This document shows positions 11,182 through 21,093 of a stretch of 64,000 nucleotides of DNA, in pieces (position 1 is the stretch's first letter; each line of letters opens with the position of its first letter). Position numbers and translations under genes: made by a program. Source of the stretch: a virus. The DNA lies in IMG/VR virus record IMGVR_UViG_3300012668_000143, positions 26,403-90,402 of that record; one strand, 5' to 3'. Below the pieces are notes generated by a model. It searched no databases, was not told the origin of the DNA, and saw only the letters and a list, made by a program, of their open reading frames with translations.

Positions 11182-14100
11182 GGCTTGATCGTCAGGTCTG
11201 ACCCTATCCCACGTTTTTGATTATCGGTTAGCTTCTCGCCGTTAGCAGTGCCGGGGCCGCCTGTAATGGCATCGAGAATCTTGCTTCCGGTGTCCCTAAT
11301 ATCCCGGCCTTCTATCTCTTCAACGACAGCCATCGGATTCGCCCGTCCTCTACCCAATTCCTTATCGTGACTGGCCCAAGCGTGCGTGTTCTCGTCCAGC
11401 GCAGCCGCGCGGTTTGGAATGCTGCCGGTAGCGTTTGGATTCAGATGCGATCTGACTTCGTGCTCGGTCGCAGGCACGATCACTGGCATTGCGGTATCGG
11501 CTGCTACCGGCCCGGTTCCTGTAAAGCCGGTTTGAGCAGACTTCGAACGGTAGCGATCTCCGATGTCGTTCGGCAGATCGCGCACGTTTCTGTCTGACGT
11601 AGCCGCAAGATCGCCGGTATTCGCCGGTAGCCGGTTGCCGTCGAAAGACGTGTTCGGCATGGCGGTAGCGCCGGTCATGGCTTCTCTTTCGGCGGCATAG
11701 TCATTTATCATCTTCGATATGCGGCCCTCCTCTTGGCCGAGAAAACGGTTTGCGTTCAAACCGTTGCGTTCGGCTACCTTTGCCAAATAGTGAGGGTCTG
11801 CCATCATATTGCGCTGAATCGCAAAGCTGCGACTCTCGCTGGTGCTGGCGCGCGTGCCTATGCCGCGCTCGGAGCGGTCTGATACGTCTTTCACGGTGCT
11901 GCGCTCGTCCACATTGGAGCGTGACGCATCGCGGCCTGAGCGGTCGGTCTGCGCCGACTGGTCGCCGGTTCCTGCGGTAACTGCGCGTTGTCCGCTGATC
12001 GAATAGCCGCGCTCGATACGGGCGTTCTCGTCTACCGAGTGGCTATCGCCTTCGGAACGATCGCGCCCGTGGCTGGCCTGATAGTTCTTCTGCGAAGTGA
12101 ATCCGACCGTGCCGCCGACGCCTGCGCCGCTGGTCAGGCCGGAGCCGGACTGCGCACCTGACTGTCCGCCGCGGTAGTTGCTGAGGGCGTTGTCGATCTC
12201 GGACTTGCTCGCGCCGCCCTTCTTCATGCCATCGGCGATGCGCTTTTCGTCTGCTTGCATTCTGCCGTCGCCTGGCGACGAAGGATTGATCGGATTGCCG
12301 CCGACGCCTGATCCGCCACCGCCGCCGTTCCAGCCGACGTTGCCGCTGAGATTGGCGCCCATGTAGCCGCTGTCGCTGGCTCCGGTAGACGCGCCAAACG
12401 TCGAGCGATCGCTGTATTGCCGATTCAAACTCTGGCCGGTGCCGTGGCTGCCGTGTTCCTGCCCGGACATTCCAACGCCAGCATTTACGCCGGTATTCTG
12501 GAATGCGCCGCGAGTCGTATCGTGGCCGGTAACGTTGGTCAGCGTGGCCGAGTCGCCGTGCCGGTAGGACGCCTGCTGGCCGGACGATGTGATCGCCGTG
12601 GCGTGGCTTTCCCGTGCGCTGTCGGACTGGAACCTATGATCCGCGCTCGCCGATGTAATCATGTGGTTCTGATATTGCTGCAAGGCAGCGGTGCCGTTCG
12701 GAGCCATGATGCCGGTCGATCCTCCGGCATAACCGATGGACGAGCCGCCGCCGGTTAGTCCGACATTGGAATCGTATTTGTGCATCGAGGTCGAGTTGAC
12801 CGAGGCCGTGTCGAGTCCGACCTGGCCCATGCTCAGATTGCCGGATGCCATGCTTGAGCCGACCGATGCTCCGGCACTGCTGAAACCGGAAACCATCATC
12901 GAGGCGACGCTCATGAAGCCCTGTTGCGACATCTTGATAATCATGCCGGAAATGATCGGCACGAGGATCACCAGATAGCCGATAGCAGCCTGTTCGTCGC
13001 CGAGCGTGGCGTCGAATACGTCGGACAACTGGAACGGTACGCCATTGGCAAGACTGAGCGCGGCCATCTTGTGGCGCAGATGCAGTAGCGACAGGTGGTT
13101 GATGACTGCGAACATGACCGGCCACATGCCGATCCACGCGAGCAGCATCATGTAGCCGCCGATGAGCCGTTTCGCGCCTTCGGCGGATACGACTACCATC
13201 AGCACGACCATCACCGGGAACATCGCGTACAGGATGGCTTCCAGCCAGTTACGCATGTGCGGCAGTGTTTCCTGCCCCAGCATTGAGAGTGTGGCATTGG
13301 AGCCGTCGGCCTGACGCGCAGCCTGCGCCGCGCCTGCCATGTGCTGCAATTCCTGAATCCGCGTCGGGTCGCTCATCAGCGCCGGCAGTTCCGATCCCGC
13401 ATCGCGCCAGATGTTGTTGAACATGGCCTGCTTCATGGCGTCGGATGCGCTCGCGGAACTCGCCAGAATCCAGTCGTAGGAGCTGCCGATTGACGTGGCG
13501 AACATGCTTTTCGCTACGGCGTCGGTGCCGACGCGGGTAAATGCTTGTCTGCCGTAAAAGGTTTGTGCGGCATCGATGCCAGCGTTGACGCGGCCTTTCA
13601 GCACCGCGGCGGTATTCGTGCAGGTATCGGTCGTCGGTGTAGCCGTCAGCGTGTTGTAGGTGACGAAGCGGGCCGGACTGGTATTGGAAAATACCGTGTT
13701 CCATGTGTCGGTTTGGCCGACGATCTGATCCGGCGTGATTACTCCGTCGCGGATGTCGTACAAGGTGCATTCCTTGAAGAACTGCATCAGGTCGGAACGC
13801 AGCCCAGGCTCGCGGATGATGACGTTGTTGACGTTCTTCAGAATGCGATGGCCGAACGCCAGATCGCCTTTAGCGAGTCCTAGATCGTCGGGTACGCCGA
13901 ATACTGTTTCATAGGTATGCGTCGCCCAGCCGAAGGCAAGATTCGTGGTTTGCGCGACGACGGCGAGAGAGAACGGCACATTGTCGATGACGCGCGGCGG
14001 CTCCAGATCGGTTTTGTCGGTCAGCAGAACGCGCGCAATCGGCATGTTCAGCAGGGTTGTAAAGATCAACGCCTGAATGAACCATGTGAAAAATTCCGCC

Positions 14101-14267
14101 TGCTTGTTGCTGAAGGCGAGCGCAAAGACGCCGAGCAACAGGGCGAACAGGAAAACCATCTTCAGCAGACCGGCAAAGCCTTCTCCAGCCATGATCGAGG
14201 CCACGCCGTTGAGGACGTAGTACAACGTCTCGACATTCCAATATGTCGCGATTTCGAAGTCGATCAT
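11178..14267 (-). CDS. traG: TraG mating-pair stabilisation protein (F-type)
   Basis: TraG_N-type start (TYWNVETLYYVLNGVAS, PRVIDNVPF), multiple TMs, long low-complexity C-terminus; follows traH. Confidence 0.92.
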   Translation of the reverse strand: MIDFEIATYWNVETLYYVLNGVASIMAGEGFAGLLKMVFLFALLLGVFALAFSNKQAEFFTWFIQALIFTTLLNMPIARVLLTDKTDLEPPRVIDNVPFSLAVVAQTTNLAFGWATHTYETVFGVPDDLGLAKGDLAFGHRILKNVNNVIIREPGLRSDLMQFFKECTLYDIRDGVITPDQIVGQTDTWNTVFSNTSPARFVTYNTLTATPTTDTCTNTAAVLKGRVNAGIDAAQTFYGRQAFTRVGTDAVAKSMFATSIGSSYDWILASSASASDAMKQAMFNNIWRDAGSELPALMSDPTRIQELQHMAGAAQAARQADGSNATLSMLGQETLPHMRNWLEAILYAMFPVMVVLMVVVSAEGAKRLIGGYMMLLAWIGMWPVMFAVINHLSLLHLRHKMAALSLANGVPFQLSDVFDATLGDEQAAIGYLVILVPIISGMIIKMSQQGFMSVASMMVSGFSSAGASVGSSMASGNLSMGQVGLDTASVNSTSMHKYDSNVGLTGGGSSIGYAGGSTGIMAPNGTAALQQYQNHMITSASADHRFQSDSARESHATAITSSGQQASYRHGDSATLTNVTGHDTTRGAFQNTGVNAGVGMSGQEHGSHGTGQSLNRQYSDRSTFGASTGASDSGYMGANLSGNVGWNGGGGGSGVGGNPINPSSPGDGRMQADEKRIADGMKKGGASKSEIDNALSNYRGGQSGAQSGSGLTSGAGVGGTVGFTSQKNYQASHGRDRSEGDSHSVDENARIERGYSISGQRAVTAGTGDQSAQTDRSGRDASRSNVDERSTVKDVSDRSERGIGTRASTSESRSFAIQRNMMADPHYLAKVAERNGLNANRFLGQEEGRISKMINDYAAEREAMTGATAMPNTSFDGNRLPANTGDLAATSDRNVRDLPNDIGDRYRSKSAQTGFTGTGPVAADTAMPVIVPATEHEVRSHLNPNATGSIPNRAAALDENTHAWASHDKELGRGRANPMAVVEEIEGRDIRDTGSKILDAITGGPGTANGEKLTDNQKRGIGSDLTIKP

Positions 14268-14276
14268 GGCCGATCC

Positions 14277-15686
14277 TCAGTGCAGGCTCTTGCCGTAGGC
14301 CAGCGACGTGCGCAACGTGCCGGACAGATTGGCGGTCATGGCGCGCTCCATGTACGCTACCTCCTCCGCGATGTGGTAGGTGCTGATGGTCTGCGTGTAC
14401 GCGGTCAACAAAACGGCGCGCGCGTCCTTCTCAATCGTGTCGATGTCCGGTTGCAGCTTTTCCATGACTGCAGAAACGGACGGGCTTGCTTGTGCCGAAT
14501 ACTTGGAAAGCGCAGCCCTGAGATCGTGCGCGGCCCGCTGTAGATAGACTTCCGCGTATTTGGCGGCGAGCAGCTCTTGATAGCGGTTGACCAGGTTATC
14601 GGCCACGGCGGTATTGTCGAGCGAGGTTGCGACGGCGAGGATTTTGTAGACCGGAATATCGGTCGCGTTCAGAAATTTCATGATGCCGGCGGGATCGGCA
14701 AATGCTGAACGAGTAGAAATATTGTCTGTGATGTCCCACATTTTTTTACGAATCATGGCCCGGAAGCTTTTGGTAGTCAGGTTTTCTTCGTGAACCGTGA
14801 GGCAATCGACCGGCTCATCGCATTTCCAGATCGGCAGGTCGATCTCGCCCATTGGCTTACCATCCTCATCGACTACATTGCCGCCGAGCAAGGTCTGTAC
14901 GGTGATTTCCTTGCGGACGAGGACAATAGGGGGTGTTTCCTTGTCTGTTGAAAATATCGACGTGCCGATCATCGACATTAAGAGCATCTTGTATTCGTCG
15001 GTGAGTCCGTCGAGGCTCTTGAGCGCGTTCCACGTTACATTGCCGACCGGCAAGGCGCTTTTTACCTCCGGCTTTGATTCAGCTACTTTGTTGATGGCGT
15101 CGTTTGCCTTGGCCTGATTGCCCATGACGTTCGTCCACGCATCGGTGATGTCGGAGAACACGCCGGTATCCACGCCATAGTTCTTCGCCGTGTTCTGCTT
15201 GTCGCGCGTCCAGTTATCTGGAATGCTGGCGTTGACGAAGCCCTTGGCCGTTTCGCACGAATCGATGTTCTGCCGATTTATCGCCTGCGCCGTAGCTTGG
15301 AGTGCCTGCATTACGTTGTCGCACGTCGGGCACAGATTTTGCACGGCAAGTTTGAATCCGTAACCGAGAGCGTTCGAGCCGATATTCTTCAAAAGTGCGA
15401 CGTACTGTTCCTTGTTGATGTAACTGAAGCCGCCAGCAAACAGGTCGATACCGCCGCAACCGGCATTCCAGCTTGGTGGGGTGAAACTGGCGACGTTGTA
15501 GGTTTGCTTCGGCATGCGCAAAAACATGCTGCCGCCAGATAACATATTTAATGTTTGTCCCTGAAGGGCTGCCGGGCTTGAGACATTGCCTTGCGCGTTA
15601 ACATCATCGAACAACTCTTGCATACTCATTGCGCTGGCGTTAGCAGTTAAAAGGCAGGCGGCAGCGATGCCTGTTATTGTTCGCAT
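14277..15686 (-). CDS. traH: TraH pilus assembly protein
   Basis: PSWNAGCGGIDLFAGGFSYIN, CPTC and SCETAK motifs; start moved to the signal peptide MRTITGIAAACLL. Confidence 0.93.
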   Translation of the reverse strand: MRTITGIAAACLLTANASAMSMQELFDDVNAQGNVSSPAALQGQTLNMLSGGSMFLRMPKQTYNVASFTPPSWNAGCGGIDLFAGGFSYINKEQYVALLKNIGSNALGYGFKLAVQNLCPTCDNVMQALQATAQAINRQNIDSCETAKGFVNASIPDNWTRDKQNTAKNYGVDTGVFSDITDAWTNVMGNQAKANDAINKVAESKPEVKSALPVGNVTWNALKSLDGLTDEYKMLLMSMIGTSIFSTDKETPPIVLVRKEITVQTLLGGNVVDEDGKPMGEIDLPIWKCDEPVDCLTVHEENLTTKSFRAMIRKKMWDITDNISTRSAFADPAGIMKFLNATDIPVYKILAVATSLDNTAVADNLVNRYQELLAAKYAEVYLQRAAHDLRAALSKYSAQASPSVSAVMEKLQPDIDTIEKDARAVLLTAYTQTISTYHIAEEVAYMERAMTANLSGTLRTSLAYGKSLH

Positions 15687-15705
15687 GATTGGTAGTGCCA
15701 TCGAT

Positions 15706-16197
15706 CTATGCCTTCGCAAATGCTTCAAGTGTCTTTGCCAGCGGTAGTGCTTGATGTGCTGTTGTAACGTGCGCTTCGATGCGCTTGATGTTCGGCTGCG
15801 ATGCGAACGAAGTCAGCGCACCCATCATCGACATAAAGGCGTTCTGCTTGATCTTGGATTCGTTCGAGAGCTTGTCGAATTCGACCGCAGCCAGCTTGCG
15901 AATTGAACGACGCGATACTCGTCTGATGCGCCTCAAGTCTCCCTCCGAGGACGCGATAATGTCGTCATCCTTCAGCCGTGTGACGCCGACATTCCTGATG
16001 GATGCGAAGACCATCCGCCGGTCGTACAGCGCCTTATGAATCGCCGATACGAGAATGTGTCGGCTCCGGTATTGAACGTCGATACCGACGAGGCCGGATA
16101 GCTCTGTGTATTGAATCTCGTCTCCGACTTTTGCTGCGATCAGTCGCTCGAAGATAAGACGAGCATCGACTGATAGTTGAAACTGTGGGCGTGCCAT
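15706..16197 (-). CDS. Uncharacterised basic protein, accessory to the RAMP/pentamer-array module
   Basis: Own RBS (AGGAG) fused to the end of array 4; Arg-rich helix RRIRRVSRRSIRKL; possible wHTH-like N-terminus. Confidence 0.75.
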   Translation of the reverse strand: MARPQFQLSVDARLIFERLIAAKVGDEIQYTELSGLVGIDVQYRSRHILVSAIHKALYDRRMVFASIRNVGVTRLKDDDIIASSEGDLRRIRRVSRRSIRKLAAVEFDKLSNESKIKQNAFMSMMGALTSFASQPNIKRIEAHVTTAHQALPLAKTLEAFAKA

Positions 16198-16215
16198 TTG
16201 AATCTCCTAGAAAAA

Positions 16216-16280
16216 ACGTTGCGATGCGTTGCGTGGCGTTACTGTGCCAAGTCAAGCCGAGTGCAGTCTTGCCGTGCCGC
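16216..16280 (-). repeat. Pentamer array 4 (13 units, NN+nRY), putative guide RNA
   Basis: Minus strand: GCGGC ACGGC AAGAC TGCAC TCGGC TTGAC TTGGC ACAGT AACGC CACGC AACGC ATCGC AACGT. Confidence 0.88.
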
Positions 16281-16317
16281 TAAACCATACTTCCATACTG
16301 TCCTGCTAATCCCGTAA

Positions 16318-16372
16318 ACCTTGTCTCGCGCAGAGTAGCCAGACTACGCTTTGCACAGCGCCGCGTAGCCGC
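16318..16372 (-). repeat. Pentamer array 3 (11 units), putative guide RNA
   Basis: Minus strand: GCGGC TACGC GGCGC TGTGC AAAGC GTAGT CTGGC TACTC TGCGC GAGAC AAGGT. Confidence 0.82.
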
Positions 16373-16391
16373 TCCTGCTAATTCTGTAAAA

Positions 16392-16456
16392 CCCTTGTCT
16401 TGCGTTGCGTGGCCGCGTCTCGCCCCGTCCAGCCCCGTCTCGCTACGCCTCGTTAA
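16392..16456 (-). repeat. Pentamer array 2 (13 units), putative guide RNA
   Basis: Minus strand: TTAAC GAGGC GTAGC GAGAC GGGGC TGGAC GGGGC GAGAC GCGGC CACGC AACGC AAGAC AAGGG. Confidence 0.88.
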
Positions 16457-16458
16457 AT

Positions 16459-17022
16459 CTACGCATCCGCCCATTTCACTGCATCCACATTAAACCGCCC
16501 ATAAAACCCGTTCTTGATTGGCCTAAATCGCCCAATGCCGATAAACCTTCCGGCCTGTCGCAAGTGCTCGGTAAACACATCCTCAGTGATAGTTTCATCG
16601 AGCACATGAAATGTCACATCACCGCTCCAGTTCTGGATAACCGGCATGCACTTGTCTACCCGCTTCCCGCCGCCGCGTACTCCGTCTGACGGAAGAAACA
16701 GCCATTCTCCTGGAACATCGTTTTTCTTGATTGGCAAGGTCAGCACATCGAACACCAACACGCCGGCCTCAAAGTGCTTTTTGTACGAGTTGTTTCCCTT
16801 TCCAGGTATTTTTACGCCAAGATACTTCGCTGCATCCGATAGGCAGTTCTTGAACGTCATCGGAGGGATGAACACGTTGCCGTCGCTGTCCACATGAAGC
16901 CGCTCTCGCCAAGTGCGCTTCTCATAATCCTTGGGCTGCTCTTTGTCCAACTTCGGCACGTCGTAATGCCGACTTTGGGAATATGGTGAAAAACTGCTTA
17001 GTGTTGCTGTTGCTGTCTTCAA
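16459..17022 (-). CDS. Minimal Cas7/RAMP-like RNA-binding protein (Vipr-like)
   Basis: N-terminal beta strand plus SPYSQSR; FIPPMTFKNCL (cf. RAMP IPgsslKG); C-terminal Gly-rich loop QAGRFIGIGRFRP..NGFYGRF. TTG start with AGGAG RBS; no other cas genes in the window. Confidence 0.8.
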   Translation of the reverse strand: MKTATATLSSFSPYSQSRHYDVPKLDKEQPKDYEKRTWRERLHVDSDGNVFIPPMTFKNCLSDAAKYLGVKIPGKGNNSYKKHFEAGVLVFDVLTLPIKKNDVPGEWLFLPSDGVRGGGKRVDKCMPVIQNWSGDVTFHVLDETITEDVFTEHLRQAGRFIGIGRFRPIKNGFYGRFNVDAVKWADA

Positions 17023-17040
17023 TTTGTATCTCCTGAAAAA

Positions 17041-17105
17041 CCGTTGAGTTGCGATGCGACGCCTCGCCTGGCCGCGCCATGCCTTATCTAGCCGTGTCCT
17101 GCATT
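17041..17105 (-). repeat. Pentamer array 1 (13 units, mostly NN-GGC), putative guide RNA
   Basis: Minus strand: AATGC AGGAC ACGGC TAGAT AAGGC ATGGC GCGGC CAGGC GAGGC GTCGC ATCGC AACTC AACGG. Confidence 0.9.
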
Positions 17106-17112
17106 GATACTT

Positions 17113-17367
17113 TTACCCCACATTCTTCGGCGCCATAGCCTTCAGCACGCGCGCCGCAATACCCTGCAATTCCTCTTCACTCACTTCTTGCTTGAAGTCG
17201 TCAGCAAATGTCTCGCGCACAAACTTTTCGGTGGAATTCCGCAAGGCTTCGTGAGCGACAATCTTCGCTGCGAACGCTTCCTGCGCGACCACAGACCAGT
17301 TGATGCCGTCTAACACGTCCATTCTGGCTTTCAATTCATCAGGGATAGAAATGCTCATTCGTGCCAT
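17113..17367 (-). CDS. Ribbon-helix-helix (CopG-like) DNA-binding protein
   Basis: MARMSISIPDELKARMD...INWSVVAQEAF fits the RHH beta-alpha-alpha pattern; first gene of the module. Confidence 0.8.
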   Translation of the reverse strand: MARMSISIPDELKARMDVLDGINWSVVAQEAFAAKIVAHEALRNSTEKFVRETFADDFKQEVSEEELQGIAARVLKAMAPKNVG

Positions 17368-17397
17368 GTCTTTTCTCGTTTGTTTGAGCGATGATGC

Positions 17398-17425
17398 AGT
17401 ATAGCATGTTTATGCGTATGTGCAA
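17398..17425 (-). promoter_or_regulatory. Sigma70-type promoter of the RHH-array-RAMP operon
   Basis: Minus strand TTGCAC-16 bp-TATACT with an extended -10 TG, 30 bp upstream of the RHH start. Confidence 0.6.
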
Positions 17426-17540
17426 GTTGTTTTGCGCCGTCTAGCCACATGCAGTCCCGTATAGCTCCATACGGCTCCATCAAGCTGTGCTGTGCGTCTC
17501 AATGCGTCGCAATACGTCTCAGTACACAACGGTACACTGT
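17426..17540 (+). repeat. Pentamer array 5 (23 degenerate NN+nRY units), divergent orientation
   Basis: All 23 consecutive 5-mers end in C/T and 21 have a purine at position 4, e.g. CTAGC CACAT GCAGT CCCGT ATAGC TCCAT ACGGC TCCAT CAAGC TGTGC TGTGC GTCTC AATGC GTCGC AATAC. Confidence 0.65.
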
Positions 17541-17565
17541 ATGCGACAATCTTCTACGCCACATT

Positions 17566-17640
17566 CTCGCCGTAGTTCAACGGATAGAACACGTGCCTCC
17601 TAAGCGCGAAATGCCGGTTCGATTCCGGTCGGCGAGACCA
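17566..17640 (+). tRNA. tRNA-Arg(CCT)
   Basis: Folded by hand: acceptor CTCGCCG/CGGCGAG, D arm GTTC/GAAC, anticodon stem CGTGC/GCGCG with loop CT-CCT-AA, T arm GCCGG-TTCGATT-CCGGT, discriminator A plus encoded CCA; 75 nt. Confidence 0.92.
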
Positions 17641-17648
17641 GTGATAGT

Positions 17649-18422
17649 CTAAAAGCTCTCGCCAGGCTTGGTGCCGGTCAAAACAAAAATACGATCCACG
17701 ATCTCGGTCAAAGACATAGCGCCGAAGCCGATAGCCGTCTTGTCACCGGTTTCCTTAGACCCTATGAACAGCGCCGGTACGCGCTCGATGCCCCATGCCG
17801 TAGCCTGTGCGCGCCCGTCGCGCGGATTGGGAAACTCAGGCAAGCCGCCGCCGTCCACGGTCACGCCCAATACGTCTATGCCGTATTTCGCGGACAGCAT
17901 CTTGAGCACCGGAGCCATAGCGTGACAGTATGGGCAGTCCGAGCGAAAGAAGAATATGAGTCCGTGCGCCTTGGCTAACTCGCGCAACTGTTGATCCTGC
18001 ATGGCCTCGCGGCTGGCATCGTAGGTCTTGATCGCAGCGTTGTTGACGGGCCGCTTGAGCGAATAATCAAGTTCCGGTGTCTGCCACACCACACGGCGCC
18101 AGTTCTCGGCGAATACCGATCCCTTGTTCTGTGTCTCTTGCCACAGGAACATATAGTCCTTCAGATTCGCGTCGGTCGGCTGCATGACTGCAATATCTTC
18201 CCGGCGCTTTATCTCCTCGCGCATCTGTTGCGCGGTCTTGATGTCTTTGTTCTCGATGCGCTTTGAGACTGGAGCGACAGGAACCGGAATGCTAGGCGTC
18301 GGCTCATCGTCGCAGTACCAATAATATTTCGCGGCGTCACATACCCAAACTGATTGGTAGTCCAAGCTTTGTGCGTGGGCGACGCTGCCGGCGAATAGGA
18401 GTGCGATGGCGTGCAATCGCAT
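17649..18422 (-). CDS. traF: TraF thioredoxin-like pilus assembly protein
   Basis: YYWYCD, LIFFFRSDCPYCH, WGIERVPALF motifs. Confidence 0.92.
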   Translation of the reverse strand: MRLHAIALLFAGSVAHAQSLDYQSVWVCDAAKYYWYCDDEPTPSIPVPVAPVSKRIENKDIKTAQQMREEIKRREDIAVMQPTDANLKDYMFLWQETQNKGSVFAENWRRVVWQTPELDYSLKRPVNNAAIKTYDASREAMQDQQLRELAKAHGLIFFFRSDCPYCHAMAPVLKMLSAKYGIDVLGVTVDGGGLPEFPNPRDGRAQATAWGIERVPALFIGSKETGDKTAIGFGAMSLTEIVDRIFVLTGTKPGESF

Positions 18423-18713
18423 CTATCGCTCTCCATTGGGACGAAGAATGTTCCACGGGCCGAATCGCGTTGATTCATCCGCTGCAATATCGTTTGTGTA
18501 CGGAAGTTGTAACTTCATCGGCTGCTCGCGAGTAGCGATGAGGACATGAAGATCGTAACCTTCGCCATCGTTGGTAAACTGCGGCGTCACGCCACGCCCG
18601 GTCTTGAGCGCATCGTCTACCGCAGTTCGTAATTGCTGCAAAGCCTCTCGCGTTCCGCAAATGTATGCTTCGTCATGCCATGCGCCTTGCGCGTATACGT
18701 GGAGGATGTTCAT
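18423..18713 (-). CDS. Hypothetical protein between traN and traF
   Basis: ATGA-coupled to the traN stop; HDEAYICGTREAL and NDGEGYDLHV look like a conserved small domain. Confidence 0.65.
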   Translation of the reverse strand: MNILHVYAQGAWHDEAYICGTREALQQLRTAVDDALKTGRGVTPQFTNDGEGYDLHVLIATREQPMKLQLPYTNDIAADESTRFGPWNILRPNGER

Positions 18714-19963
18714 GGATTGTCTCCGTAGTAATTGGAAACCTTGTTATTGACCGTGGCGCTGACATCAGTCGTCACTTGTCCGGTATTTATGGCTGTTGGC
18801 GAGATAGTGGCGATAAACTCGGCCATGTCTATCGTAGAAAAGTCGAGCGCCTGAAGCTCAGTTGGAGTGAAGCCGCCGCATTGATCCATCGGCATTCCCA
18901 GTTGTGCGCGGCCCTGACGATTGATGATCTTGGCGAGCACGCTGTTAAAGCAGCAATGGCGTTGCTTGCTTACGGTGCAGACGCCGAAGGCATTGGTGGA
19001 ACAATAGGTATCGATGTGGACGCAGAGATTCTGGCCTTGCTTCATCGCCATTACTTGTTCTTCCTGCTCGCAACTGAGCCATTCGGTGACGGCATACACG
19101 GCGATGGCGAAGGCGAAACTGTACGGATCGAAACCGACGAAAGCGAAGCCGCCGGATGACGAGTAGGAGAAGGTGAACCCGTAGGCGCCGAAGTTTGTGC
19201 CAGCCGAGGCTGCTACGCCTTCGGTCGCTCCCGGAGTCAAGCCGCCGGCTGCCGCGCTCGCACCTTCTGCCGCAATAGTGGCGTCCTGAACCTGAAACAG
19301 CGCGTCATACATATACTTCGATCCGGCCTTGATCTCTTCCTTGCCGACGGCATAGGCGGCTTTCGCGCTAAGGCCGACTACTGTGTAGTTGGTGAAGGAA
19401 CCGCCGCCGCCGGTCGCTCCACAGCAACTTTTGATCGAACTGCCGCCAAGTACCTTGATCGAGCATTCTTCCATGTAGCCCTTGAAAATCTCGACGCCGT
19501 TAGGATCGATGCCGTATACGCCGGCCTCGCGCGCCGCTTCCATACTCGCTGCCGCGATGCCGAAGTCCTTGTCGGCAGGGCGCGTAGTATCGAAGCAGGC
19601 CGCGCTTCCGTCCTGGCAAAAGCCGGTATTGCAAACTATCTTCTCTTCTGTTTTGGCAGGCGCAAGGGGGCATTGATAATGCTGCTCGTACATCGAGCAC
19701 GATCCGTCCGCTGACTTGTCCACGCAGACAGACCCGATTTGCGTGCAGCCTTGGTCGCGCAACGGCTGGCATGTGCTGGTGGTATCGGCGCTGCGGCATT
19801 GGTAACTATCCTGCCAGCGCCAGCATGCACGCGTGATCGGAACGCCGTCTATCGAGCGCGTCTGATGCGGCTCGGCGCAGACTTCGCCGGTCTTGAAGCA
19901 TGTCGGCTCGCACAGGGCCGGGCCGCAGAAGAGAAGAGCCAAAGCTGCGACGAGAGTTTTCAT
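18710..19963 (-). CDS. traN: TraN, Cys-rich C-terminal half (separate gene)
   Basis: Own signal peptide; C.HIDTYCS...RHCCFNSVLAKIINRQGRAQLG, CGGFTPTELQALDFSTIDMAEF. Confidence 0.88.
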   Translation of the reverse strand: MKTLVAALALLFCGPALCEPTCFKTGEVCAEPHQTRSIDGVPITRACWRWQDSYQCRSADTTSTCQPLRDQGCTQIGSVCVDKSADGSCSMYEQHYQCPLAPAKTEEKIVCNTGFCQDGSAACFDTTRPADKDFGIAAASMEAAREAGVYGIDPNGVEIFKGYMEECSIKVLGGSSIKSCCGATGGGGSFTNYTVVGLSAKAAYAVGKEEIKAGSKYMYDALFQVQDATIAAEGASAAAGGLTPGATEGVAASAGTNFGAYGFTFSYSSSGGFAFVGFDPYSFAFAIAVYAVTEWLSCEQEEQVMAMKQGQNLCVHIDTYCSTNAFGVCTVSKQRHCCFNSVLAKIINRQGRAQLGMPMDQCGGFTPTELQALDFSTIDMAEFIATISPTAINTGQVTTDVSATVNNKVSNYYGDNP

Positions 19964-21093
19964 CGTGCGCGTGTGGAGAGAGGAGCGCACTGGCTTTCAT
20001 CCCATGAATCGGTGCAGACACGCGGGCATTTCTGGCGCGTGGTGAACTGGACAGCGCCCTCGCCGTTGCCGGCAACGATGGTGCGAACGAAAACGCTGTT
20101 CGATCCTTCTTTCAAGAGGTGGATCAAATCGATGTTCAGGCTGTTGTTCCAACTGACGCTAAGTTCCGGCTCGCCGAAACAAGTCTCGCAATACTGGATT
20201 TTTCCGGCATTGACATCTTTCGGATCAGCCGGTGTATAAACGTTGAGTCGGTCGCCGCCATACGGCCCGACATAGGCCAATTGGTCATTGACTTTGACCA
20301 TGATCCAGTCATCGAACGCGGCGCGGGTCAAGGAGAAGACGGTAATTAGCGACAAGTCCTTTACGTCGAAGGTCAAGGTGCGGTCGAATACTGCGCCGTC
20401 TCCAGACCAATAGTTATCCTCGATGGTGCCGAATTGCAGGATGTAATTGCCGGCGCCGTCCGATGTCCATGTCGTCGCCATGTCGCCGGCCCAGCTACCT
20501 GCGACTATGCCGCCCTGGTCGCAACCATCGGCAGATTCAGCGCACGCTACGGTAAGGACGCGATTGCAGGTCAACGGCTCGCTGGTAAACGCCTCGACGC
20601 AGGTAACAGTGCTGAATGTGCCTGGGACGGTTGTTTTCTCGATGTGGCACGCCGATGTGCCGCTGCCTGGAATGGTGCCTGGACTGGCGATGGTGCTCTT
20701 CGAATTGACCATGAGCGGATCGGTTTTCTTGTCGATCACGAATTTAGGATGCTCACTTGGCTGCTTGGTCATGTAGTTAACCGCATCGCAATCTTGCTGG
20801 TCGTAAGCAGTGGCGGCTTTGAATCCCTTGCAGTTCGCCTGCTTGGTGCTGCCGGCGCCGCCGATCAATGCCTTGCCGCCAGCGTAGACGCTGGTTTCAG
20901 GCGGACTGGTGTTGTACTTCGGGACATTGGCCGTGCCGGTTGTGGTGTTGATGGTTGCTGTGGCGGCTGCGCTGCCGGCTGTGCTGTTGGAGAAGTCTTG
21001 GCCGGCTTTGAAGGCGTCGGCTGTGGTGGTGATGGTTTGGGCGAGCGATGGGAAGGCGATGGACAAGCAGGCCAGCAACAAAAGGCGGTTCAT
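19960..21093 (-). CDS. traN: TraN, N-terminal half (separate gene)
   Basis: Signal peptide, Cys pattern, RAAFDDWIMVKVND motif; ATGA overlap with the C-terminal half. Confidence 0.8.
   Translation of the reverse strand: MNRLLLLACLSIAFPSLAQTITTTADAFKAGQDFSNSTAGSAAATATINTTTGTANVPKYNTSPPETSVYAGGKALIGGAGSTKQANCKGFKAATAYDQQDCDAVNYMTKQPSEHPKFVIDKKTDPLMVNSKSTIASPGTIPGSGTSACHIEKTTVPGTFSTVTCVEAFTSEPLTCNRVLTVACAESADGCDQGGIVAGSWAGDMATTWTSDGAGNYILQFGTIEDNYWSGDGAVFDRTLTFDVKDLSLITVFSLTRAAFDDWIMVKVNDQLAYVGPYGGDRLNVYTPADPKDVNAGKIQYCETCFGEPELSVSWNNSLNIDLIHLLKEGSNSVFVRTIVAGNGEGAVQFTTRQKCPRVCTDSWDESQCAPLSTRAR

What the first reader, a model, noticed from the sequence alone, without database searches (positions are those of the whole stretch)
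16198..17105. Arrays are delimited by conserved linkers and shared 5'/3' ends, like a multi-guide precursor
Seen: arrays 2/3 and 3/4 are separated by a near-identical ~30-nt element (+ strand TCCTGCTAATCCCGTAAACCTTGTCTCGC at 16301-16329 and TCCTGCTAATTCTGTAAAACCCTTGTCTTGC at 16373-16403). Array 1 begins with the related motif GCAGGAC. Arrays 1 and 4 both end ATCGC-AAC..AACG(G/T)-TTTTT-C(T)AGGAGAT(A/T)CAAAT, running directly into the RBS and start codon of the next gene. Inference: linkers mark processing sites or RNA ends that give four separate guides. Filament assembly on the arrays in the 5' leaders could autoregulate translation of the RAMP and accessory genes.
Basis: partly seen in the sequence, partly recalled or inferred. 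Interest (0 to 1): 0.72.

Follow-up and report, generated by a model that had tools for sequence, protein, structure and literature searches.

The report
VIPR guide-RNA units and their boundaries
The repeated "linkers" and shared ends are the unit boundaries of four guide-RNA genes of a VIPR system, a CRISPR-related RNA-guided DNA silencer first described in 2026, here carried in the transfer operon of a conjugative phage-plasmid, so the feature is real but of a known kind.

Summary
On the minus strand, four arrays of 12-13 five-base units (Y-N-N-G/C-G) flank a 187-aa gene. Arrays 2/3 and 3/4 are separated by two elements identical in 26 of 31 aligned columns. Arrays 1 and 4 share a 34/44-identical end that runs into the ribosome-binding site.

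The 187-aa protein is a Vipr. A family profile hits PDB 36pp "SUSP1 Vipr protein" (E 2.6e-10), and the model has a Cas7 fold. The locus is therefore a VIPR system (bioRxiv 10.64898/2026.04.26.720920), and this scan has met VIPR on other DNA several times.

Each linker has three modules:
- A 3' tail (CAAGR-CAAGG or CAACG units), found 256 times on the gene strand and never on the other strand in about 90 homologous loci.
- A U-run or TTTTAC.
- A start motif (GRWTTARC, then AGGA).

Only the tail and U-run are conserved across the clade. The rest is locus-specific. Near-identical relatives swap the variable units but keep the tails.

No promoter, terminator, ribozyme or stable fold lies in the linkers. 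Co-transcription followed by cutting in the exposed AU-rich spacers is therefore the best reading, but no RNA data exist. Translational autoregulation is plausible and untested.

The parts
17113..17367 (-). orf84, a small protein with a ribbon-helix-helix/VapB-like N-terminus, first gene of the cassette
   Evidence: NCBIfam VapB-type antitoxin model, E 4e-5, below its cutoff. No homolog lies next to vipr in 91 other loci. The gene is conserved in near-identical soil relatives.
17042..17102 (-). vrRNA array 1: GCAGGA start motif, then 12 pentamers; the last three (17056-17041: CATCG CAACT CAACG G) are the tail
   Evidence: In relatives, similarity breaks exactly at 17106 and other pentamers follow.
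17023..17040 (-). U5 run (17040-17036), Shine-Dalgarno AGGAG (17034-17030), then the TTG start codon of vipr at 17022
   Evidence: It is 34/44 identical to the matching stretch before orf163.
16459..17022 (-). vipr, a 187-aa minimal RAMP/Cas7-like protein
   Evidence: Family profile hits PDB 36pp 'SUSP1 Vipr protein', E 2.6e-10. AF2 model pLDDT 91. Foldseek top hits are Cas7 of type VII/III, E 4e-7. More than 2678 homologs exist.
16392..16459 (-). vrRNA array 2: start motif GATTTAAC overlapping the vipr stop codon, then 12 pentamers; tail CAACG CAAGA CAAGG G at 16407-16392
16319..16378 (-). vrRNA array 3, 12 pentamers and the most degenerate array; tail CGAGA CAAGG at 16328-16319
16301..16329 (-). 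linker B: tail end of array 3, TTTAC, GGATTAGC (16312-16305) and AGGA
16282..16306 (-). short leader after linker B (GCAGGA plus 19 nt with an AGTATGG duplication), ending in a second start motif GGTTTAGC (16286-16279); possibly the remnant of a lost array
   Evidence: The remnant reading is inference.
16217..16281 (-). vrRNA array 4, 13 pentamers; tail CAACG CATCG CAACG at 16231-16217
   Evidence: A relative keeps 16198-16234 (tail, U-run, RBS) but has other in-phase pentamers upstream. Another relative lacks exactly 5 nt at 16220.
16198..16216 (-). U6 run (16216-16211), Shine-Dalgarno AGGAG (16208-16204), then the ATG start codon of orf163 at 16197
15706..16197 (-). orf163, the clade's conserved accessory gene (vap)
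   Evidence: tblastn homologs (33-44% identity) lie beside vipr in 47 of 91 loci. No Pfam, NCBIfam, PADLOC or PDB match.

Best explanation
The stretch is the guide-RNA part of a VIPR system: vipr at 16459-17022, its accessory gene orf163, and four vrRNA genes. The cassette lies between traF and traH of an F-type transfer operon. Each vrRNA unit has about 8-10 variable Y-NN-G/C-G pentamers, whose NN pairs would spell a DNA target under the published one-base-skip rule. Next comes a constant 3' tail of 2-3 pentamers with NN = AA or AU (CAAGR/CAACG), and then a U-run. Shown here: the protein is a Vipr; the arrays have the vrRNA format; the tail and U-run are conserved and strand-specific across the clade; relatives exchange the variable units between fixed tails. 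Inferred: the cassette is transcribed as one RNA, either from an extended -10 (TGcTATACT, 17406-17398, seen by eye) or by read-through from tra. Vipr protomers coat the pentamer tracts. Host nucleases (the tail/U-run junction GG|UUU fits the RNase E preference, from general knowledge) cut and trim the bare AU-rich spacers. The result would be four RNPs of about 60-70 nt of RNA each. Because arrays 1 and 4 end 18-19 nt before the start codons of vipr and vap, filament assembly or cutting there may also affect their translation.
For: Vipr identity: PDB 36pp hit E 2.6e-10, Cas7 fold, His19 and the G-loop aromatic-Arg pair conserved with phage Viprs. vrRNA format. Published description of vrRNA, tail, arrays and vap: bioRxiv 10.64898/2026.04.26.720920. 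Tail: CAA[CG][GA]CAA[CG]G occurs 256 times on the gene strand and 0 times on the other strand. A T-run follows it: TTTT in 58 of 197 sequences, against 8 further downstream. Linkers are repeated within loci (identity 0.61) more than between loci (0.48). The window's linker type recurs in L091/L092. Breaks of similarity in near relatives fall at 17106, 17026 and 16234, with in-phase foreign pentamers beyond them and a 5-nt indel in a tail. No sigma-70-like promoter or terminator lies in 15600-18500. The folds of both spacers are no better than shuffles (z +1.0 and -0.9). There is no Rfam family apart from the tRNA.
Against: No RNA data exist for this element, so no RNA end is mapped. The promoter is read by eye and failed the scanner's -35 rule. 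Relatives use other linker types: 45-nt hairpins in L002 and L106, and AT-rich -10-like spacers in L005 and L068. Biogenesis may therefore differ between loci, and the window's route cannot be deduced from them. No natural target was found for any of the four guides, so guide activity is inferred from homology. The G-loop Asp that reads the first G in SUSP1 and P. fulva is Arg165 here.
Confidence: 0.7

Rival explanations
1. Each vrRNA is its own transcription unit: the linkers hold a promoter for the next unit, and the U-runs end the previous one.
For: In relatives with AT-rich linkers, the spacer reads like a -10 box at the right distance from a GACA in the tail (L005, L068; by eye). A U-run follows about half of all tails.
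Against: No promoter-like site lies on either strand of 15600-18500, where 2.4 are expected by chance. The linker hexamers (AATTAG, GATTAG) lack the invariant T6 of a -10 box. No hairpin precedes any U-run.
Confidence: 0.12
2. The leader arrays are, beyond being guides, translational operators. A Vipr filament on arrays 1 and 4 masks or exposes the ribosome-binding sites of vipr and vap, giving feedback.
For: The tails end 18-19 nt before the two start codons. In the clade, 133 of 246 tails lie within 60 nt (median 21 nt) of a start codon. In many of these the terminal AAGG(A) of the tail is itself the only Shine-Dalgarno-like sequence.
Against: Proximity is equally explained by co-transcription alone. 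The VIPR preprints I searched for it (the discovery paper and the October 2026 competition paper) do not mention regulation of this kind. Nothing here tests it.
Confidence: 0.25
3. The conserved linkers and tails act at the DNA level, as homology anchors for exchange or duplication of guide cassettes, and have no role of their own in the RNA.
For: Near relatives differ by whole variable tracts between fixed flanks. One relative carries 195 nt in place of the 79 nt of array 1. The start motif resembles the vipr stop-codon region, as if units arose by duplication.
Against: The tail is conserved and strand-specific across Viprs down to 57% identity, where neutral DNA would have decayed. In SUSP1 the tail is part of the RNP. 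The two roles do not exclude each other.
Confidence: 0.1
4. The arrays are double-stranded DNA sites (iterons or operators), for example for the RHH protein orf84, and are not RNA genes.
For: An RHH-like gene is adjacent.
Against: The motif shows total strand asymmetry (256 to 0). The arrays co-occur with Vipr but not with orf84. A 5-bp period places successive sites on opposite faces of the helix.
Confidence: 0.02

Closest known systems
Type II VIPR of Escherichia phage SUSP1 and the Pseudomonas fulva prophage (bioRxiv 10.64898/2026.04.26.720920 and .720927; PDB 36pp)
   Same: A lone Cas7-like Vipr of about 20 kDa and an adjacent small accessory gene. Guide RNAs of about 12 pentamers with fixed G-G-Y-type positions and free NN. 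One guide lies in the leader of vipr and several lie in an array. There is a constant 3' tail.
   Different: Only 22-30% protein identity. The tail here is 2-3 constant pentamers plus a U-run with no predicted structure, not a 40-nt hairpin/pseudoknot. Position 4 of the unit is often C or A. The G-loop Asp is Arg. The system sits on a conjugative phage-plasmid inside the tra operon.
Other VIPR array architectures named in the discovery preprint (staggered arrays, hammerhead-interspersed arrays, single vrRNA)
   Same: Several guides in tandem that must be separated from one another.
   Different: The window's spacers are 12-14 nt, unstructured, and have no ribozyme. Which of the seven published types this clade belongs to could not be read, because the figures and tables are not held.
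CRISPR arrays and class 1 crRNA maturation
   Same: A constant element alternates with variable guides. A RAMP backbone binds the guide with a fixed period. Trimming of type III crRNA to the protected length is the model for the processing proposed here (general knowledge).
   Different: There are no Cas6, Cas1 or Cas2. The variable information is interleaved inside a 5-nt repeat. The constant element is a tail with a spacer, not a palindromic repeat.

Membership tests
VIPR system | Vipr protein: single-RRM RAMP with G-loop and thumb, homologous to SUSP1 Vipr | tested here: met
   Profile of 26 family members against PDB 36pp 'SUSP1 Vipr protein', E 2.6e-10. AF2 model pLDDT 91 with Cas7 top hits. 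tblastn finds Ounavirinae and LESphi2 phage Viprs.
VIPR system | vrRNA of 9-16 tandem pentamers with conserved GGY-type positions and hypervariable NN | tested here: met
   Four arrays of 12-13 units. Position 1 is Y in 46/49 and position 5 is G in 37/49. The NN positions carry about 0.15 bits. Position 4 is relaxed (G 28, C 16), a 'related consensus' that the preprints allow.
VIPR system | Invariable 3' tail after the repeat tract | tested here: met
   A clade-wide, strand-specific tail (256 to 0), kept in relatives whose guides differ. Its sequence and lack of structure differ from the SUSP1 pseudoknot.
VIPR system | Adjacent accessory gene (vap) | tested here: met
   orf163 homologs lie beside vipr in 47/91 loci. 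Identity with published vap1-6 could not be checked.
VIPR system | vrRNAs expressed as small RNAs of about 100 nt that co-purify with Vipr | not testable with these tools
   No RNA run holds this DNA.
VIPR system | Natural DNA targets matching the NN string with one skipped base, mostly at codon wobble positions | tested here: inconclusive
   No self-target above shuffled guides. Exact scans of IMG/VR gave hit counts at chance level and no shared gene family.
Hammerhead-interspersed VIPR array | Self-cleaving ribozyme between guides | tested here: not met
   No Rfam match in window 14000-20000 at E <= 1 apart from the tRNA. The linkers are 12-14 nt and unstructured.

The most novel reading that the evidence does not exclude
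In this large Vipr clade the guide's 3' end is set without any RNA structure. A run of constant CAAGR/CAACG pentamers plus a U-tract would stop the filament and mark the nuclease cut. Because the same element sits on the ribosome-binding sites of vipr and vap, RNP assembly would feed back on synthesis of its own proteins. That would be a biogenesis and control logic not described for VIPR.
Probability: 0.2. Interest if true: 0.5.

Novelty: new member of a known kind. Interest (0 to 1): 0.3.

Why it matters
It adds a plasmid-borne, tra-operon-embedded example to a system described so far mainly in phages. It also defines the unit anatomy (start motif, variable units, pentamer tail, U-run) for a Vipr clade with thousands of members, which helps automatic calling of vrRNA boundaries. 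The preprints I read describe ribozyme-interspersed and staggered arrays, but not how short-linker arrays like this one are separated. This compact, unstructured linker type is a simple test case. Fixed tails with exchangeable guide tracts also suggest how guide repertoires turn over.

Tried and rejected
- **RNA evidence:** no RNA holder is listed for this DNA, so no RNA ends could be mapped.
- **Targets:** there is no self-target above shuffled guides in the 100-kb genome. Exact xNN scans of IMG/VR gave these results:
  - Array 2, 18 specified bases: 1 hit, with the skipped base at codon position 1.
  - Array 4, 20 bases: 0 hits.
  - Array 1, 16 bases: 9 hits in unrelated genes.
  - Array 3, 18 bases: 1 hit.
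  - All counts are at chance level when calibrated on the 16-base result.
- **Hammerhead in relatives:** I first read the CUGAUG...GAAA element between arrays of L002 as a hammerhead. Rfam gives no ribozyme hit even on 700 nt at E <= 10, so I call it only a conserved hairpin.
- **DNA similarity to plasmids:** only the tRNA matched.
- **Genome-contig scan:** run with a single protein, it returned one locus. The alignment-based viral scan was far more useful.
- **Supplementary tables:** those of the discovery preprint are not held, so the VIPR type number could not be assigned.
- **CRISPR reading:** rejected. There are no repeats of CRISPR length and no cas genes beyond the lone RAMP.

Full report
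**Setting**

All genes in this part of the window lie on the minus strand. In order they are TraN (19990-18710) and TraF (18422-17649), then a tRNA-Arg(CCT) on the plus strand (17566-17640). Three small genes follow: orf84 (17367-17113), orf187 (17022-16459) and orf163 (16197-15706). TraH and TraG_N come next. The window is part of a 100,637-bp IMG/VR virus record. The finding covers the two intergenic stretches around orf187.

**Checking the observation**

Read on the minus strand, both stretches are built of in-phase pentamers. In the published Y-N-N-G-G register there are four arrays of 12, 12, 12 and 13 units.
- Position 1 is a pyrimidine in 46 of 49 units.
- Position 5 is G in 37 of 49.
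- Position 4 is G in 28 and C in 16.
- The two N positions carry almost no information.

The two linkers align with 26 identical columns of 31, far above shuffles. The ends of arrays 1 and 4 share 34 of 44 columns, through the U-run and Shine-Dalgarno sequence to the start codon. GCAGGA heads array 1 at 17102-17097 and closes both linkers. The hexamer is common in the window (55 copies), but three copies in 350 nt at equivalent places is not chance. No such arrays exist elsewhere in the genome.

**What it is**

orf187 has no Pfam, NCBIfam or PADLOC match. It belongs to a family of more than 2678 proteins, mostly in phage early regions.
That led me to two 2026 preprints describing Viral Interference Programmable Repeat systems.
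- These systems have a minimal RAMP protein (Vipr) and guide RNAs (vrRNAs) of 9-16 YNNGG units. The NN pairs read double-stranded DNA with one skipped base.
- They also have an invariable 3' tail and an accessory gene (vap). Guides lie upstream of vipr and in arrays.

I tested membership directly.
- A profile of 26 family members hits PDB 36pp, "SUSP1 Vipr protein", at E 2.6e-10.
- The AlphaFold model (pLDDT 91) has Cas7 proteins of type VII and III complexes as its best structural matches.
- His19, the G-loop aromatic residue and Arg167 align with the RNA-reading residues of phage Viprs. The G-loop Asp is Arg165 here.
- orf163 homologs sit beside vipr in 47 of 91 related loci, so it is the clade's vap. 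orf84 does not recur.

**Anatomy of the linkers, from 90-odd homologous loci**

- The terminal motif CAA[CG][GA]CAA[CG]G closes arrays 256 times on the gene strand and never on the opposite strand. This is the clade's 3' tail: constant pentamers whose NN is AA.
- A T-run follows far more often than further downstream.
- What comes after that differs from locus to locus but repeats within a locus (identity 0.61 against 0.48). Examples are 45-nt hairpins (L002, L106), AT-rich spacers (L005, L068) and short boxes (L078-L082, L064, L085, L094).
- The window's type (GG, T-Y-TTAC, 1-2 nt, RRWTTARY) recurs only in L091/L092, at 74% Vipr identity.
- At 78% identity (L106) the linker is of another type.

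The tail and U-tract are conserved in homologs. The rest of the linker and GCAGGA are not.

**Evidence from near-identical relatives**

Contigs from other soil metagenomes, laid on the stretch, keep orf84, vipr, orf163 and the tails but not the variable units.
- Similarity stops at 17106, at 17026/17106 (195 nt replace 79 nt) and at 16234.
- The unlike sequence beyond these points is again in-phase pentamers.
- One relative lacks exactly one pentamer in the tail of array 4.
- Another has TTTTAC in its own linker.

This marks the tail boundary independently. It also shows that guides turn over between fixed flanks.

**How the units are probably made**

- No sigma-70-like promoter or intrinsic terminator is found anywhere in 15600-18500.
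- The two spacer RNAs fold no better than shuffles.
- Rfam finds only the tRNA.
- An extended -10 (TGcTATACT, 17406-17398) upstream of orf84 is visible by eye, and the cassette has the orientation of the tra operon.

The most economical model is one transcript. Vipr coats the pentamer tracts, and host nucleases remove the bare AU-rich spacers. The GG|UUU junction fits the RNase E preference (general knowledge), and the process would resemble length-trimming of type III crRNAs. This is inference. No RNA run holds the sequence. The preprints I searched for it do not discuss biogenesis beyond ribozyme and staggered arrays.

**Autoregulation**

The tails of arrays 1 and 4 end 18-19 nt before the start codons. 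Across the clade, 133 of 246 tails lie within 60 nt (median 21 nt) of a start codon, and the tail's AAGG(A) often serves as the Shine-Dalgarno sequence. The arrangement is therefore conserved and would place a bound protomer inside the ribosome's footprint. Co-transcription alone explains it equally well.

**Targets**

I found no convincing target for any guide. That question belongs to a separate finding.

**Verdict**

The feature is real and correctly sensed as a multi-guide arrangement, but it belongs to a kind published in 2026. This scan has met that kind on other DNA several times. The new detail is the pentamer-plus-U tail, the modular short linker, and the location inside a conjugative transfer operon.

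Noticed in passing
window 17426-17520 (minus strand): A fifth, degenerate 5-nt-phased array lies upstream of orf84 and ends in a tail-like GCAAAACAAC just before the extended -10. Unlike arrays 1 and 4, it is nearly unchanged in the near-identical soil relatives (10 differences over 17106-17587). It may be a fossil array or a regulatory site rather than a live guide.
   Followed up: partly
window 17566-17640 (+): An intact tRNA-Arg(CCT) lies on the opposite strand inside the tra operon, directly beside the VIPR cassette. Contigs of relatives break at both of its ends.
   Followed up: no
window 16528-16530 (Arg165 of vipr): The G-loop Asp that reads the first G of GGY in SUSP1 and P. fulva Vipr is Arg in this clade (IGIGRFRP). 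This goes together with a relaxed position 4 of the pentamer (G, C or A).
   Followed up: partly
L078-L082 (for example L079:1734-2477): Relatives at about 60% Vipr identity carry 6-7 tandem arrays built almost wholly of Y-NN-C-G units (CGC type). These end in CAACGCAACGT, and the arrays are separated by a 15-20-nt box (TATTTTACACATTTACCCCGA).
   Followed up: no
L085:4142-4334: One uninterrupted tract of 39 pentamers (193 nt) before a tail, far beyond the published 9-16 units.
   Followed up: no
L002:4600-5150, L013, L018, L106:240-290: The inter-array spacers hold a conserved hairpin of about 45 nt with CUGAUG...GAAA. Rfam gives no ribozyme match.
   Followed up: partly
L095:4010-4035 (minus strand): The only exact IMG/VR match (18 of 18 specified bases) to the NN string of array 2 lies inside a 594-codon ORF of another viral contig. 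The skipped bases fall on codon position 1, so it is probably chance.
   Followed up: partly
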